Source: Escherichia phage JM17. From it: a stretch of 64,000 nt of DNA. Below are positions 14,072 to 17,771 of the stretch, piece after piece. The stretch's first letter is position 1; each line of letters begins with the position of its first letter. The notes under the pieces are model-generated. The model was not told where the DNA came from, ran no database searches, and was given only the letters and a program-made list of their open reading frames with translations. The stretch lies in the sequence record PP400779, one strand, 5' to 3'. A program made the translations under genes and the position numbers.

Positions 14072-14434
14072 ATGAAAGCATATCAAATTCTTGAAGGTGC
14101 ACATAAAGGCACTATTTATTTTGAAGACGGTACTCAAGCCCGGATTATTGTCTCTAAGACTTTTAAAGAAGACTCTATTGTAGACCCGGAAATTTTCTAC
14201 GGTTTGAAGGCCCGTGAAATTGAAATTGAACATCAACCTAAAGTTAAAATTGAAGGTGGTCAACATCTGAACGTTAACGTTCTGCGTCGTGAAACTCTGG
14301 AAGATGCAGTTAAGCATCCGGAAAAATATCCGCAGCTGACCATCCGTGTATCTGGTTATGCAGTTCGCTTTAACTCTCTGACTCCGGAACAGCAGCGCGA
14401 CGTTATCGCTCGTACCTTTACTGAGAGTCTATAA
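14072..14434 (+). CDS. glycyl-radical cofactor protein (GrcA/YfiD-like C-terminal module) with phage-specific N-terminus
   Basis: C-terminal ~60 aa ([63 protein letters not shown]) match E. coli GrcA as recalled, glycyl radical motif RVSGY; codon usage in this segment is host-like. Confidence 0.7.
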
Positions 14435-15129: not shown

Positions 15130-15134
15130 AGTAG

Positions 15135-15190
15135 TTTACTTCTCCTCTAGTTGTGTTACTATAGACCTGTCAACTAGAGGAGAAATCAAA
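15135..15190 (+). promoter_or_regulatory. PeSL-like promoter: GTTTAC, TACTAT, 12-bp arms CTCCTCTAGTTG / CAACTAGAGGAG
   Basis: -35 at 15135-15140, -10 at 15157-15162; right arm contains the SD for ATG 15191. Confidence 0.5.
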
Positions 15191-15649
15191 ATGACTATCA
15201 ATTCAGACGTTTTTATCCGCCGTAATAAACTCCGTCGAATCTTTGAAACGGAGTTCCGCAAAATAAATGCCGGTATAAAAGATGCTGCAAAGTCTCTTGG
15301 ACTACCAGGCTTTCATATCAAGTATTCTCAACATCTCTTAGATCGTGCCATCCAGAGAGAAATAGATGAGAATTACGTTTTTGAATTATTTCATAAAGTA
15401 AAAAATCATGTTAAAGAAGTTGCAGAATTTTTATCAATGCCGGCACGTCCAGATGTTGATGAAGATTTTGTCGAAGGTGTCGAATATCGCCCAGGCCGTT
15501 TAGAAATAACTGATGGAAATCTTTGGTTAGGACTTACAGTTTGTCGCGAAAATCCAGCATTCAAAATGAAGACTCTTCAATGCAGAATGGCTATTATTAA
15601 CAGTAAACGACTACCAGGAAAAGCTTCTAAAGCAGTGATTAAAATCTAG
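15191..15649 (+). CDS. hypothetical protein
   Basis: 152 aa; no motif recognised. Confidence 0.45.
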   Translation: MTINSDVFIRRNKLRRIFETEFRKINAGIKDAAKSLGLPGFHIKYSQHLLDRAIQREIDENYVFELFHKVKNHVKEVAEFLSMPARPDVDEDFVEGVEYRPGRLEITDGNLWLGLTVCRENPAFKMKTLQCRMAIINSKRLPGKASKAVIKI

Positions 15650-15657
15650 AGGTAAAC

Positions 15658-16200
15658 ATGAGAAAAGCACTACTCGCTGGTCTATTTGCTCTTTCGTTAT
15701 CAGCATATAGCTCCGAGCATACTTTTAGTAATGTCCAACTCGATAACTTGAATTATGCTTATCAGTTCGGGGAACAGTTTTCTAAGGACGGAAAATTTAA
15801 AACGCATGAAAATATGCATAAGAAAGGACTTGGATACATAATGGCCGCAATACTATGGCAAGAATCATCTGCCGGTATTAATCTTAAAGATAAGAAAGGT
15901 CACCATGCGTATGGAATGTTCCAAAACTATCTACCAACAATGAGGGCAAGAATTAACCAGCTTGGTTATAATATGACTGATGCCCAAATTAAGAAAATGC
16001 TATCTAAGCGGTCTAATTCAGCCAGATGGGCTTATATCGAATTTTCTTATTGGTTAAATATACATAACGGGGATATAAGGAAAGCTATATCCTCATATAA
16101 TGCGGGATGGAAGACAAGTGCTGGAAGTAAATATGCTTCTGAAGTCCTAGAAAAGGCTAATTACCTTAAATCAAATAAACTACTGGAAATAAAAGAATGA
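15658..16200 (+). CDS. secreted lytic transglycosylase-like (SLT domain) protein
   Basis: signal peptide MRKALLAGLFALSLSAYS; SLT-like motifs ILWQESS, YGMFQ, SSYNAGW. Confidence 0.5.
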   Translation: MRKALLAGLFALSLSAYSSEHTFSNVQLDNLNYAYQFGEQFSKDGKFKTHENMHKKGLGYIMAAILWQESSAGINLKDKKGHHAYGMFQNYLPTMRARINQLGYNMTDAQIKKMLSKRSNSARWAYIEFSYWLNIHNGDIRKAISSYNAGWKTSAGSKYASEVLEKANYLKSNKLLEIKE

Positions 16201-16544
16201 CCAAAATGTTGGCTTTAATAGTTGGCTTGGTTTCATTTAACGCTCTTGCTAATACTACATATACTGATGTAACGGAGTATACAAACAGAACGGCGTCTGA
16301 TTATTGTGGTAAAAGTCGAGAGTGTAAAGTAGATTTTTCACAAAAATTGTTATATGCGTATAAAGACGGAGAAAAAGATGGGGCGTCTAGTAGGTTCAAG
16401 GCGTCTACTTTAATTAAAAGATACTATAAAAAATGGCAAATATTAGAATGCTCGGTGGCGGAACCTAAAGATAAGGCAGCATGCAATTCTATGGTGGACC
16501 GTCTAGTTGACTCTTATACTAGAGGACTTGCAGCAAGTGATTAA
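16197..16544 (+). CDS. secreted/periplasmic small protein
   Basis: signal peptide MTKMLALIVGLVSFNALA. Confidence 0.4.
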   Translation: MTKMLALIVGLVSFNALANTTYTDVTEYTNRTASDYCGKSRECKVDFSQKLLYAYKDGEKDGASSRFKASTLIKRYYKKWQILECSVAEPKDKAACNSMVDRLVDSYTRGLAASD

Positions 16545-17001
16545 AAACTATATCAAGGGCGATATTGTCGCCCTGTTTTCTAAAGGTAATAATATTGCTC
16601 ATGGGTGTAATTGTTTTCATACAATGGGCGCCGGTGTGGCAGGACAATTAGCAAAGGCTTATCCAAAAATTCTGGAAGCCGATAAACTTCAAACCGAATT
16701 CGGAGACGAGTCTAAACTCGGGACTTATTCGGTTTATGAAAAATATTTTAAGACCCATAAAGCTTATTGCTTTAATCTTTATACGCAGTTTGAGCCGGGA
16801 CCTAATTTTGAGTACTCTGCTTTAATGAATTGTATAATAGAATTAAATGAATTCGGAAAGAATAAGATAATAAAGCCTGTAATTTATATGCCAAGAATTG
16901 GTGCAGGTATTGGTGGTGGAAACTGGGATGTCATCGAAGAGATTTTAGATACATATTCCACTAAACTAGAAATTGTGATTGTTGATTGGGAACCTAAATG
17001 A
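16507..17001 (+). CDS. macro-domain protein (ADP-ribose binding / putative ADP-ribosyl hydrolase)
   Basis: GDIVALFSKGNNIAHGCNCFHTMGAGVAGQLAKAYP and IGAGIGGGNWDVI resemble macro-domain motifs; start uncertain (overlaps upstream ORF). Confidence 0.5.
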   Translation: MTLILEDLQQVIKNYIKGDIVALFSKGNNIAHGCNCFHTMGAGVAGQLAKAYPKILEADKLQTEFGDESKLGTYSVYEKYFKTHKAYCFNLYTQFEPGPNFEYSALMNCIIELNEFGKNKIIKPVIYMPRIGAGIGGGNWDVIEEILDTYSTKLEIVIVDWEPK

Positions 17002-17180
17002 AATTAACTAAAGAAGAGAAAGCTAAACTGTTCGAACTTATCCATGACCTATTGGATGAACAAGCAGCCACCAATGCGTATGATGAATATGCTCCTTTGA
17101 CAGACGAAGAATATCACGCATTGATGGAATCATTTGACAGGAAAGAACAAGAACTCATTGACTATGTGAATTCACTATAA
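16998..17180 (+). CDS. hypothetical acidic protein
   Basis: ATGA overlap. Confidence 0.4.
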   Translation: MKLTKEEKAKLFELIHDLLDEQAATNAYDEYAPLTDEEYHALMESFDRKEQELIDYVNSL

Positions 17181-17189
17181 GGGACTCTT

Positions 17190-17771
17190 ATGGCTAGTTT
17201 AATTTTTACCTATGCCGCTATGAACGCTGGTAAGTCTGCTTCATTACTTACTGCTGCACATAACTATAAAGAGCGTGGCATGGGTGTATTAGTTCTTAAA
17301 CCGGCTATTGATACTCGCGATTCAAAAGGTGAAATAGTCTCTCGTATTGGTATTCGTCAGGATGCCAATATAATTACAAAAGACATGGATATCTTTGAAT
17401 TTTATAAATGGGCTGCAGCACAAAAGGATATTCATTGTGTATTTGTTGACGAAGCTCAGTTCTTAACTACTGAAAAGGTGTATCAACTTAGTCGTATTGT
17501 TGACGTGTACAATGTGCCGGTAATGGCATATGGACTACGAACAGATTTTAAAGGTAATCTATTTGAAGGTTCTCAAGCATTAATGGCTATTGCCGATAAG
17601 CTTGTTGAACTTAAAGGTGTCTGTCATTGTGGTAAAAAGGCCACAATGGTAGCTAGAGTCACGGAAGACGGACTTCCAATTACAGATGGCAGTCAAATTG
17701 AAATTGGTGATACCGATAGATATGTGTCATTATGCCGGAAGCATTGGAATGATTTGACAGGGTTGTTATAA
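17190..17771 (+). CDS. tk: thymidine kinase
   Basis: P-loop FTYAAMNAGKSASLL; C-terminal CHCGKKA...LCRKH zinc ribbon; 193 aa. Confidence 0.9.
   Translation: MASLIFTYAAMNAGKSASLLTAAHNYKERGMGVLVLKPAIDTRDSKGEIVSRIGIRQDANIITKDMDIFEFYKWAAAQKDIHCVFVDEAQFLTTEKVYQLSRIVDVYNVPVMAYGLRTDFKGNLFEGSQALMAIADKLVELKGVCHCGKKATMVARVTEDGLPITDGSQIEIGDTDRYVSLCRKHWNDLTGLL

What the first reader, a model, noticed from the sequence alone, without database searches (positions are those of the whole stretch)
15658..16544. Secreted SLT-like transglycosylase followed by a second secreted protein
ORF 15658 has a signal peptide and SLT-like motifs (ILWQESS, GMFQ, YNAGW); the next ORF also has a signal peptide. An exported muralytic enzyme separate from lysozyme e could remodel the periplasm or act in superinfection exclusion.
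Basis: inference. Interest (0 to 1): 0.4.

Follow-up and report, generated by a model that had tools for sequence, protein, structure and literature searches.

The report
T4-type vs.1–vs exported gene pair
These two genes are the known T4-family genes vs.1 and vs in an RB69-like phage: vs.1 looks like an exported cell-wall-cutting enzyme, and vs, annotated as a modifier of a cytoplasmic tRNA synthetase, looks from its sequence like an exported partner of that enzyme.

Summary
Window 15658-16200 and 16197-16544 are two overlapping (ATGA) ORFs, and both start with a Sec-type signal peptide.

The window is an RB69-like Mosigvirus (98-99% DNA identity). The ORFs are the annotated genes vs.1 and vs, in the order regB–vs.1–vs–tk.4–tk–rI.

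**Vs.1** belongs to the GH23/SLT lytic-transglycosylase fold:
- Glu69 (E-S), GMFQ and SYNAG are conserved across 39 relatives.
- This similarity was already published in 2006.

**Vs** is the less expected part. It is annotated 'valyl-tRNA synthetase modifier'. Yet all 54 distinct relatives examined carry a signal peptide, and some carry a lipobox. All have four conserved Cys in a four-helix bundle.

A vs-like gene lies next to or near vs.1 in 64 of 70 T4-like loci, including Acinetobacter and Pseudomonas phages.

Published T4 transposon data show both genes matter for fitness, more so in minimal medium.

My best reading is an early, exported lytic transglycosylase plus a co-exported partner. 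Nothing here tests enzyme activity, export or binding. The classical ValRS genetics remain unexplained. The genes are known; the reading of Vs is new but unproven.

The parts
15134..15162 (+). T4-early-promoter-like element (GTTTAC, 17 nt, TACTAT) upstream of regB. Likely start of the regB–vs.1–vs transcript.
   Evidence: Read directly. The match to the T4 early consensus is from my own knowledge. The generic sigma-70 scan found no more sites than chance, so this is weak.
15191..15649 (+). regB endoribonuclease gene (context; immediately upstream, same strand)
   Evidence: Pfam REGB_T4 E 6e-69; RB69 annotation
15649..15652 (+). Shine-Dalgarno GAGG, 5 nt before the vs.1 ATG. Its first base is the last base of the regB stop codon.
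   Evidence: Sequence
15658..16200 (+). vs.1: 180-aa precursor of an exported GH23/SLT-type lytic transglycosylase-like protein (stop codon included)
   Evidence: - ORF. RB69 vs.1 annotation. 82% identical to T4 Vs.1.
- phrog_600 E 9e-67.
- Pfam SLT 18.8 bits, below the 21.3 cut-off. 38 of 39 relatives hit SLT.
15658..15711 (+). Vs.1 predicted signal peptide (residues 1-18, MRKALLAGLFALSLSAYS; predicted cut AYS|SE). No Cys, so not a lipoprotein.
   Evidence: The N-terminus varies in sequence but keeps its character in relatives. AF2 pLDDT is 61-67 here against more than 90 in the fold.
15862..15864 (+). Codon of Glu69, the predicted catalytic acid (E-S motif at the end of helix 59-70)
   Evidence: Invariant in 39 relatives; helix boundaries; sequence
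16197..16544 (+). vs: 115-aa precursor of a small exported four-helix protein, annotated 'valyl-tRNA synthetase modifier' (stop codon included). Its start overlaps the vs.1 stop (ATGA).
   Evidence: - ORF. RB69 vs annotation. 67% identical to T4 Vs.
- phrog_1256 E 9.5e-35. PF26829 precomputed.
- AF2 pLDDT 86.6, helices 20-37, 41-64, 69-85 and 90-113.
16197..16250 (+). Vs predicted signal peptide (residues 1-18, MTKMLALIVGLVSFNALA; predicted cut ALA|NT). Mature protein is 97 aa, 11.0 kDa, with Cys37, Cys43, Cys85 and Cys96.
   Evidence: AF2 pLDDT is below 50 for residues 1-16. The four Cys are invariant in 36 relatives and aligned in all 54 distinct Vs-like proteins.
16537..17001 (+). tk.4 macro-domain gene (context). 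GTG start overlaps the end of vs. The T4 orthologue was named AdfM, an anti-DarTG2 factor, in a preprint.
   Evidence: RB69 annotation; Pfam Macro E 1.9e-6; bioRxiv 10.1101/2025.11.20.689424

Best explanation
The two ORFs are the RB69-type alleles of the T4 genes vs.1 and vs. They are transcribed before replication in the unit regB–vs.1–vs, and they are translationally coupled.

**Vs.1.** It is made with a cleavable Sec signal peptide. The mature protein is a soluble, basic periplasmic protein of about 18.7 kDa with the GH23 (SLT, family-1 lytic transglycosylase) fold. Glu69 would act as the single catalytic acid. The enzyme would cut MurNAc-GlcNAc bonds of the host sacculus and leave 1,6-anhydro-MurNAc ends.

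**Vs.** It is also exported. The mature 11-kDa protein is a four-helix bundle. Its two helix-turn-helix loops are each probably stapled by a disulfide (Cys37-Cys43 and Cys85-Cys96).

**The pair.** I infer that Vs is the periplasmic partner of Vs.1. It most likely binds Vs.1 and restrains or directs its activity. The infected cell's wall would then be remodelled during the latent period without premature lysis. This helps phage yield most in slowly growing cells in minimal medium.

**What is shown and what is inferred.**
- Shown here: gene identity, fold, conserved catalytic motifs, signal-peptide character, conserved Cys, and conserved adjacency of the two families.
- Taken from the literature: early expression and the fitness phenotypes in T4.
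- Inferred: actual export, enzyme activity, disulfides, physical interaction, and the direction of regulation.
- Left open: how this fits the classical finding that the vs gene controls a modification of cytoplasmic valyl-tRNA synthetase.
For: **Identity**
- 98-99% DNA identity to RB69-like phages, whose annotation reads regB, vs.1, vs, tk.4, tk, rI.1, rI.
- T4 has the same gene order.

**Vs.1 fold and motifs**
- Invariant E69, S71, G86, Q89, N90, Y147, N148, G150 and Y159 in 39 relatives.
- 38 of 39 relatives hit Pfam SLT, best E 1.3e-7.
- AF2 pLDDT 89.5.

**Export**
- Signal-peptide features are present in both proteins.
- 54 of 54 distinct Vs-like and 52 of 62 Vs.1 sequences pass the test. 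The Vs.1 failures are mostly mis-called starts or truncations. Only 50 of 386 control ORFs pass.
- One lineage of Vs-like proteins has a lipobox, LSGC. A lipobox only makes sense for an exported protein.
- AF2 leaves both N-termini outside the fold.
- T4 Vs expressed in the cytoplasm with an N-terminal His tag went to inclusion bodies (PMC8076793).

**Pairing**
- In 70 IMG/VR loci with a Vs.1 relative, a Vs-like ORF starts within -8 to +7 nt of the vs.1 stop in 54.
- It lies within 1.5 kb in 8 more and is present but degraded in 2.
- Very diverged copies from Acinetobacter phage Mokit and from loci L020 and L072 still hit phrog_1256, at E 3.6e-27, 1e-36 and 9e-23. hhalign aligns all four Cys of the Mokit copy.
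- Vs evolves faster than Vs.1: mean pairwise identity 38% against 58%, and lower in 97% of 1891 pairs.

**Expression and phenotype in T4**
- Both genes show early RNA and middle protein, and both proteins were detected (PMC9697503 supplement).
- In the HIDEN-SEQ supplement Data S8, insertions in vs and vs.1 have 26.6 and 22.6 mean reads in LB. Neighbouring genes have 180-770.
- Both drop further in M9: log2FC -2.19 for vs (adjusted p 0) and -0.87 for vs.1 (p 0.0055, adjusted 0.155).
- A clean vs deletion impairs plaques in M9Glc.
Against: **Classical work on vs (my recollection; those papers could not be read here)**
- T4 vs mutants fail to convert host valyl-tRNA synthetase to a urea- and heat-stable form.
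- A purified ~10-kDa factor does this in vitro.
- vs+ phage rescue a temperature-sensitive valS host in vivo.
- Together these imply a cytoplasmic action of the vs product.
- I could not check how the vs locus was tied to this particular ORF.

**Weaknesses in the evidence here**
- This Vs.1 sequence scores below Pfam's SLT gathering cut-off (18.8 against 21.3 bits).
- Sequence and profile searches of PDB found no lytic transglycosylase.
- The four Cys all lie at one end of the predicted bundle.
- No interaction between Vs and Vs.1 was computed or measured.
- Adjacency and co-fitness could reflect shared transcription and polar effects of insertions rather than shared function.
- Aeromonas T4-like phages keep vs.1 without a vs-like gene.
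Confidence: 0.6

Rival explanations
1. Vs is what its name says: a cytoplasmic protein that binds host valyl-tRNA synthetase. Its hydrophobic N-terminus is not used for export, or only part of the pool is exported. Its position next to vs.1 reflects shared early transcription only. Vs.1 is an independent exported lytic transglycosylase.
For: - Classical genetics and biochemistry of vs (own knowledge; cited in PMC8076793, and in the HIDEN-SEQ preprint).
- The defect specific to minimal medium fits a translation or amino-acid-supply role at least as well as an envelope role.
- vs is hit harder than vs.1 in M9, so it may have a function of its own.
- Four Cys at one end of a helical bundle could bind zinc.
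Against: - A tripartite signal peptide is kept in 54 of 54 distinct relatives while its sequence drifts, and a lipobox variant exists.
- Start/stop overlap with an exported enzyme is conserved from enterobacterial to Acinetobacter and Pseudomonas phages.
- Vs diverges fast, although ValRS is a highly conserved target.
- Many lineages insert a third exported protein (phrog_4957) right after it.
Confidence: 0.25
2. Vs is dual-purpose, or the ValRS effect is secondary. The exported, mature ~11-kDa protein is the main species and works in the periplasm. The ValRS 'modification' comes from a minor unexported pool, or from association after cells are broken.
For: - The predicted mature size (11.0 kDa here and in T4) is nearer than the 12.9-13.1 kDa precursor to the ~10 kDa I recall for the purified factor.
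- All the export and pairing evidence listed for the best explanation also applies.
- The preprint states that the biological role of the ValRS modification is not known.
Against: - In vivo rescue of a temperature-sensitive valS host by vs+ phage (own recollection) argues against a pure post-lysis artefact.
- There is no direct evidence on localisation.
Confidence: 0.3
3. Vs.1 is an accessory lysis or superinfection-exclusion factor. It would weaken the wall to speed lysis, or act against incoming phage.
For: - It is an exported muralytic-type fold encoded near rI and rI.1.
- In Acinetobacter phage Mokit the vs.1–vs cluster runs directly into the antiholin rI gene.
- In a Felix-O1-like phage the relative sits between rIIB and a spanin gene.
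Against: - It is expressed early or middle, not late.
- It does not replace e lysozyme, which remains essential in T4.
- rI and sp insertions behave neutrally in the same data sets where vs.1 and vs insertions are depleted.
- No data link it to exclusion.
Confidence: 0.1

Closest known systems
T4 Vs.1 (P13311) / RB69 Vs.1 (AAP76017); phrog_600
   Same: - Orthologue: 82% protein identity to T4, and about 98.5% DNA identity to RB69 over the region.
- Same length and the same position between regB and vs.
- The SLT similarity was already reported for six T4-like phages (PMC1524935).
- Some GenBank records already annotate it as 'transglycosylase SLT domain-containing protein'.
   Different: Nothing material. 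The function of the family has not been tested experimentally, as far as the searchable literature shows. PHROGs lists it as 'unknown function'.
T4 Vs, 'valyl-tRNA synthetase modifier' (P13310); phrog_1256 / PF26829
   Same: Orthologue: 67% identity to T4 Vs, the same 115 aa, and the same position and overlap with vs.1.
   Different: The family name implies a cytoplasmic role. The sequence features found here point to the periplasm: a conserved signal peptide, a lipobox variant, four conserved Cys, and coupling to an exported enzyme. I found no paper in the searchable library that discusses this.
Family-1 lytic transglycosylases (E. coli Slt70, MltC, MltE; P. aeruginosa Slt, MltF, MltD), GH23
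   Different: - Only 14-18% identical, and not found by sequence or profile search of PDB.
- Single domain of about 160 residues with a family-specific N-terminal helix (residues 25-38).
- No lipid anchor and no accessory domains.
- Phage-encoded and phage-restricted.
'Specialised' small exported lytic transglycosylases of envelope-spanning machines (EtgA of the T3SS; VirB1, P19 and IpgF/IagB types)
   Different: - No secretion or conjugation machine is encoded nearby.
- It is expressed early by a lytic phage.
- Resemblance to VirB1, P19 and IpgF is from memory and was not tested.
Periplasmic muramidase / small-protein control pairs: T4 Spackle (gp61.3)–gp5 lysozyme, Ivy–MltB, T6SS Tse3–Tsi3
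   Different: - Spackle's target is a virion protein of another phage particle, not a co-expressed enzyme.
- No binding between Vs and Vs.1 has been shown.

Membership tests
GH23 / SLT family-1 lytic transglycosylase (for Vs.1) | Lysozyme-like GH23 fold | tested here: met
   [not shown]
GH23 / SLT family-1 lytic transglycosylase (for Vs.1) | Catalytic Glu in an E-S motif at the end of a helix, plus G-x-x-Q and (A/S)-Y-N-x-G motifs | tested here: met
   E69-S70-S71, G86-M-F-Q89 and S146-Y-N-A-G150. E69, S71, G86, Q89, Y147, N148 and G150 are invariant in 39 relatives. E69 ends helix 59-70.
GH23 / SLT family-1 lytic transglycosylase (for Vs.1) | Score above Pfam PF01464 gathering threshold | tested here: inconclusive
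   This sequence scores 18.8 bits against a cut-off of 21.3. However, 38 of 39 family members match at E <= 0.01, best 1.3e-7.
GH23 / SLT family-1 lytic transglycosylase (for Vs.1) | Non-hydrolytic cleavage of MurNAc-GlcNAc giving 1,6-anhydro-MurNAc | not testable with these tools
   Needs purified protein and muropeptide analysis.
Sec-exported soluble periplasmic protein (for Vs.1 and Vs) | Tripartite signal peptide (basic n-region, hydrophobic h-region, small residues at -3/-1) and no further TM segment | tested here: met
   Heuristic test only; no SignalP was available. This window. Vs-like 54/54, Vs.1 52/62, controls 50/386. Maximum KD19 in the mature parts is 0.96 and 1.45.
Sec-exported soluble periplasmic protein (for Vs.1 and Vs) | Demonstrated export and cleavage | not testable with these tools
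   Needs fractionation, reporter fusions or N-terminal mass spectrometry.
T4 Vs 'valyl-tRNA synthetase modifier' family (phrog_1256 / PF26829) | Sequence homology to T4 Vs | tested here: met
   67% identity to T4 Vs; phrog_1256 E 9.5e-35; PF26829 precomputed on all relatives.
T4 Vs 'valyl-tRNA synthetase modifier' family (phrog_1256 / PF26829) | Binds and alters host valyl-tRNA synthetase in the cytoplasm | not testable with these tools
   Sequence features argue for export, which sits uneasily with this function.
Proteinaceous periplasmic inhibitors of lysozyme-fold enzymes (Spackle, Ivy, Tsi3 types) (for Vs) | Structural similarity to a known inhibitor | tested here: not met
   [not shown]
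Proteinaceous periplasmic inhibitors of lysozyme-fold enzymes (Spackle, Ivy, Tsi3 types) (for Vs) | Binds and inhibits its cognate enzyme | not tested
Only genomic coupling and co-fitness are available.

The most novel reading that the evidence does not exclude
The protein that textbooks and databases call the T4 'valyl-tRNA synthetase modifier' is primarily a Sec-exported, disulfide-stapled periplasmic protein. It forms a conserved two-component module with the exported lytic transglycosylase Vs.1, probably as its regulator. The module remodels the infected cell's wall during the latent period and matters most in nutrient-poor conditions. The 60-year-old ValRS modification would then be a side activity of an unexported pool, or an indirect effect. 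The annotation carried by hundreds of phage genomes would be misleading.
Probability: 0.4. Interest if true: 0.65.

Novelty: already known. Interest (0 to 1): 0.4.

Why it matters
As catalogued genes these are ordinary. They are near-identical copies of RB69 vs.1 and vs, and the SLT similarity of vs.1 has been in print since 2006.

What could matter is the mismatch uncovered around vs. Its biological role has never been explained. A 2025 preprint found it to be the T4 gene most needed in minimal medium. Its sequence says 'periplasm, partner of a wall-cutting enzyme' in lineages from E. coli phages to Acinetobacter phages.

If that reading is right, three things follow:
- The old ValRS question becomes directly testable with simple genetics (single against double deletions, signal-less complementation).
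- A widespread annotation would need correcting.
- T4-like phages would gain a third muralytic system, besides e and gp5. It would act early from within the periplasm, with its own control protein.

Tried and rejected
**Searches that found nothing useful**
- Sequence and profile searches of PDB with Vs.1, Vs and the Vs.1 family alignment found no relative with a solved structure. Only fold comparison worked.
- NCBIfam has no model for either protein.
- The local Pfam copy lacks PF26829, so Vs gave no Pfam hit.
- An exhaustive HMMER search of 1.84 billion representatives with a narrow Vs profile found only 8 proteins. This made the family look tiny. The PHROG profile and synteny showed it is much wider.

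**Ideas tested and dropped**
- Vs.1 as a lipoprotein: rejected, because it has no Cys.
- Vs.1 as a redundant endolysin: rejected, because it is expressed early and e is essential.
- A pure toxin/immunity pair in which vs.1 is harmful and dispensable: unlikely, because vs.1 insertions themselves lower fitness. Polarity on vs cannot be excluded.

**Uninformative or unavailable**
- The generic promoter/terminator scan gave counts equal to chance.
- Miller 2003 (PMC150520) and Müller & Marchin 1975 (PMC354445) are not held. A title search for what I recall as the original sequencing paper of this region (Valerie et al. 1986) found nothing. The ValRS statements therefore rest on my memory and on secondary citations.
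- Model coordinates are not exposed, so Cys-Cys distances could not be measured and disulfide against zinc site could not be decided.
Full report
**What is there**

The finding covers two ORFs on the + strand: 15658-16200 (180 aa) and 16197-16544 (115 aa). The stop codon of the first overlaps the start codon of the second (ATGA). A GAGG Shine-Dalgarno sequence lies 5 nt before the first ATG, and the second ORF has only a weak one. This is the usual layout of translational coupling.

Both proteins begin with a basic n-region, an uncharged hydrophobic core and small residues at -3/-1:
- MRK-ALLAGLFALSLSAYS|SEHTF
- MTK-MLALIVGLVSFNALA|NTTYT

Neither has a further hydrophobic segment.

**Which genes these are**

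The region is 98-99% identical in DNA to RB69 and other Mosigvirus phages. In RB69 the same ORFs are annotated vs.1 and vs ('valyl-tRNA synthetase modifier'). The gene order there is regB–vs.1–vs–tk.4–tk.2–tk–rI.1–rI. T4 has the same order. The proteins are 82% (Vs.1) and 67% (Vs) identical to their T4 counterparts.

Pfam confirms the neighbours: RegB (E 6e-69), a macro domain in Tk.4, and the antiholin RI.

A T4-early-promoter-like element (GTTTAC, 17 nt, TACTAT) sits just upstream of regB. That reading relies on my memory of the consensus, and the generic promoter scan was no better than chance.

In T4, both genes give early RNA and middle-class protein, and both proteins were detected by mass spectrometry (PMC9697503 supplement).

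**Vs.1 is a lytic-transglycosylase-type protein**

The window protein matches Pfam SLT only weakly, at 18.8 bits against a cut-off of 21.3. Sequence and profile searches of PDB find nothing. The assignment holds on other grounds:
- 128 relatives were found, all about 170-190 aa. Every relative that carries a source name is from a phage, apart from one filed under Acinetobacter baumannii on a phage-sized (169-kb) contig.
- Of 39 diverse relatives, 38 hit SLT, with a best E of 1.3e-7.
- E69, S71, G86, Q89, N90, Y147, N148, G150 and Y159 are invariant down to 39% identity. These are the E-S, G-x-x-Q and (A/S)-Y-N-x-G signatures of family-1 lytic transglycosylases (my knowledge of the family).
- An AlphaFold2 model built on that alignment is confident (pLDDT 89.5), and E69 ends a helix.

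This similarity is not new. Nolan et al. 2006 reported it for six T4-like phages and cited an earlier PSI-BLAST match (PMC1524935). Some GenBank records already call the protein 'transglycosylase SLT domain-containing protein'. PHROGs still lists the family (phrog_600) as function unknown. I found no experimental study.

By tblastn, relatives occur in 2060 phage records. These include Felix-O1-like and Vi1-like myoviruses.

**Vs looks exported, which is unexpected for its name**

Thirty-six relatives (PF26829, phrog_1256) share the following:
- an N-terminus that drifts in sequence but always keeps signal-peptide character;
- four invariant Cys (37, 43, 85, 96);
- a nearly invariant C-terminal SMVDRLVDSYNRGL.

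The AF2 model (pLDDT 86.6) is a four-helix bundle. Residues 1-16 are left unstructured. The Cys pairs flank the helix 1-2 and helix 3-4 turns. This fits two loop-stapling disulfides. All four Cys lie at the same end of the bundle, however, so a zinc site cannot be excluded.

**The pair is conserved far beyond T4**

I fetched 70 IMG/VR loci that encode a Vs.1 relative and examined what lies downstream.

| Downstream of vs.1 | Loci |
|---|---|
| Intact Vs-like ORF starting within -8 to +7 nt of the vs.1 stop | 54 |
| Intact Vs-like ORF within 1.5 kb (RB43-like group, one or two ORFs intervening) | 8 |
| Degraded Vs-like gene (internal deletion in L031, frameshift in L044) | 2 |
| None (four Aeromonas 44RR/31-like phages, two jumbo phages) | 6 |

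'Vs-like' means 99-122 aa, a signal-like N-terminus and exactly four Cys in the mature part.

Many of these ORFs were invisible to an HMM built from the enterobacterial Vs proteins. They nevertheless hit phrog_1256 strongly: Acinetobacter phage Mokit at 3.6e-27, L020 at 1e-36 and L072 at 9e-23. hhalign aligns all four Cys of the Mokit protein (probability 82%, E 1e-5).

Further points:
- All 54 distinct Vs-like proteins pass a simple n-region + h-region + (-3,-1) test. Only 50 of 386 other ORFs from the same loci pass it. The hydrophobicity criterion was part of the selection, so only the other two criteria are independent.
- In one lineage (L040, L041, L043, L067) the signal ends in a lipobox, LSGC. 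That only makes sense for an exported protein.
- Vs diverges faster than Vs.1. Mean pairwise identity is 38% against 58%, and Vs is the less conserved of the two in 97% of 1891 comparisons.
- Many lineages add a third signal-peptide protein (phrog_4957) between vs and tk.4.
- In the window itself, vs is the only one of 213 ORFs of at least 60 aa that meets the Vs-like criteria.

**Functional data from the literature**

A 2025 preprint (HIDEN-SEQ) reports that vs is the T4 gene most depleted in M9-glucose relative to LB. It also reports that a clean vs deletion impairs plaque formation in M9Glc, and it states that the role of the ValRS modification is unknown.

Its supplementary table Data S8 shows more:

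| Gene | Mean reads in LB | log2FC, LB to M9 | Significance |
|---|---|---|---|
| vs | 26.6 | -2.19 | adjusted p 0 |
| vs.1 | 22.6 | -0.87 | p 0.0055, adjusted 0.155 |
| regB, tk.4, vs.3, vs.4, tk.3 (neighbours) | 180-770 | about 0 (regB +1.17) | not significant |

The two genes therefore share a fitness phenotype that their neighbours lack. Polar effects of vs.1 insertions on vs cannot be excluded. Loss of vs alone being worse than an insertion in vs.1 is what a 'Vs restrains Vs.1' model predicts. It is equally compatible with Vs having a function of its own.

The e lysozyme gene remains essential, with 2.5 mean reads. Vs.1 is therefore not a back-up endolysin.

T4 Vs expressed in the cytoplasm with an N-terminal His tag was insoluble (PMC8076793). 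This is weakly consistent with a protein meant for export.

**The conflict**

As I recall the classical work (Neidhardt, Marchin, McClain and colleagues), vs mutants fail to convert host ValRS to a stable form. A ~10-kDa factor does so in vitro, and vs+ phage rescue a valS(ts) host in vivo. I could not read those papers, nor the paper that assigned vs to this ORF.

A cytoplasmic action is hard to square with a conserved cleavable signal peptide. Three ways out exist:
- an unexported pool acts on ValRS;
- the ValRS effect is indirect, or arises after cell breakage;
- the N-terminus is not an export signal after all.

I rate export of Vs at roughly 85%, and a functional partnership with Vs.1 at roughly 55%.

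**Verdict**

The finding is real and correctly described. It concerns two known and annotated genes, and the SLT similarity is already published. On that basis it is ordinary.

The added value of this check is the evidence that Vs belongs with Vs.1 in the periplasm: a conserved signal peptide, a lipobox variant, conserved Cys, near-universal coupling and shared fitness phenotype. This contradicts the sense of its annotation. The point is unproven but cheap to test, so I give moderate interest.

Noticed in passing
L020:3366-3767, L008:2282-2707 and equivalents in L023, L025-L028, L035, L037, L053, L057-L067: Many T4-like lineages carry a third signal-peptide protein directly after the vs-like gene and before tk.4. 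It is 130-146 aa, has 2 Cys and an 'AWE…PGYPE' motif after the signal, and belongs to phrog_4957 (unknown function). It is absent from this window and from T4. In Acinetobacter phage Mokit the run of exported proteins continues into the antiholin rI gene.
   Followed up: partly
L006:1393-1650 (= L031) and L044:3049-3376: Natural damaged vs alleles. Phage vB_EcoM_005 has an in-frame internal deletion that removes Cys37 and Cys43 (85 aa). One IMG/VR contig has vs split by a frameshift. In both, vs.1 upstream is intact. These are possible natural tests of vs loss.
   Followed up: partly
L040, L041, L043, L067 (ORF starting at the vs.1 stop): In one lineage the Vs-like protein starts MKKLFVLLVVFALSGC…. 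This is a lipoprotein-type signal with a lipobox Cys in addition to the four conserved Cys.
   Followed up: partly
window 14072-14434 (+): vs.6 homologue: a 120-aa protein whose C-terminus is a glycyl-radical domain (Pfam Gly_radical, E 2.2e-18). It resembles a GrcA-like 'spare part' for a glycyl-radical enzyme. This was already noted by Nolan et al. 2006.
   Followed up: no
window 16537-17001 (+): tk.4 macro-domain gene. Its GTG start overlaps the end of vs by 8 nt. A 2025 preprint names the T4 orthologue AdfM and shows it protects T4 from the DarTG2 defence system.
   Followed up: partly
window 16556-16584 (+): GC-rich hairpin followed by a T-rich tail (AGGGCGATATTGTCGCCCT GTTTTCT), 12 nt after the vs stop and inside the 5' end of tk.4. 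It could be an attenuator or an RNA-stabilising end of the regB–vs.1–vs transcript. The region's count of terminator-like sites is not above chance (6 found, 3.2 ± 2.0 expected).
   Followed up: no
window 17001-17190 compared with APCEc01, JK45 and similar records: Several near-identical Mosigvirus genomes match this stretch in two pieces, with about 415 extra bases (3216 against 2801 bases). The extra bases hold two additional small ORFs between tk.4 and tk.2 that this window lacks.
   Followed up: no
L009:2299-2739, L070:3356-3796, L079:3531-3971: Aeromonas 44RR/31-like phages keep vs.1 but have no vs-like gene. Instead, a 75-aa protein and a 146-aa lipoprotein-like protein (…GMYGC…) lie between vs.1 and tk.4. 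This might be a non-homologous replacement of Vs.
   Followed up: no
L011:1408-1956 and L010:1450-2013: Vs.1 relatives also occur outside Straboviridae. In a Felix-O1-like phage the gene has a clear signal peptide and lies between rIIB and a spanin gene. A relative also occurs in the Vi1-like phage Ag3. Neither has a vs-like neighbour.
   Followed up: partly
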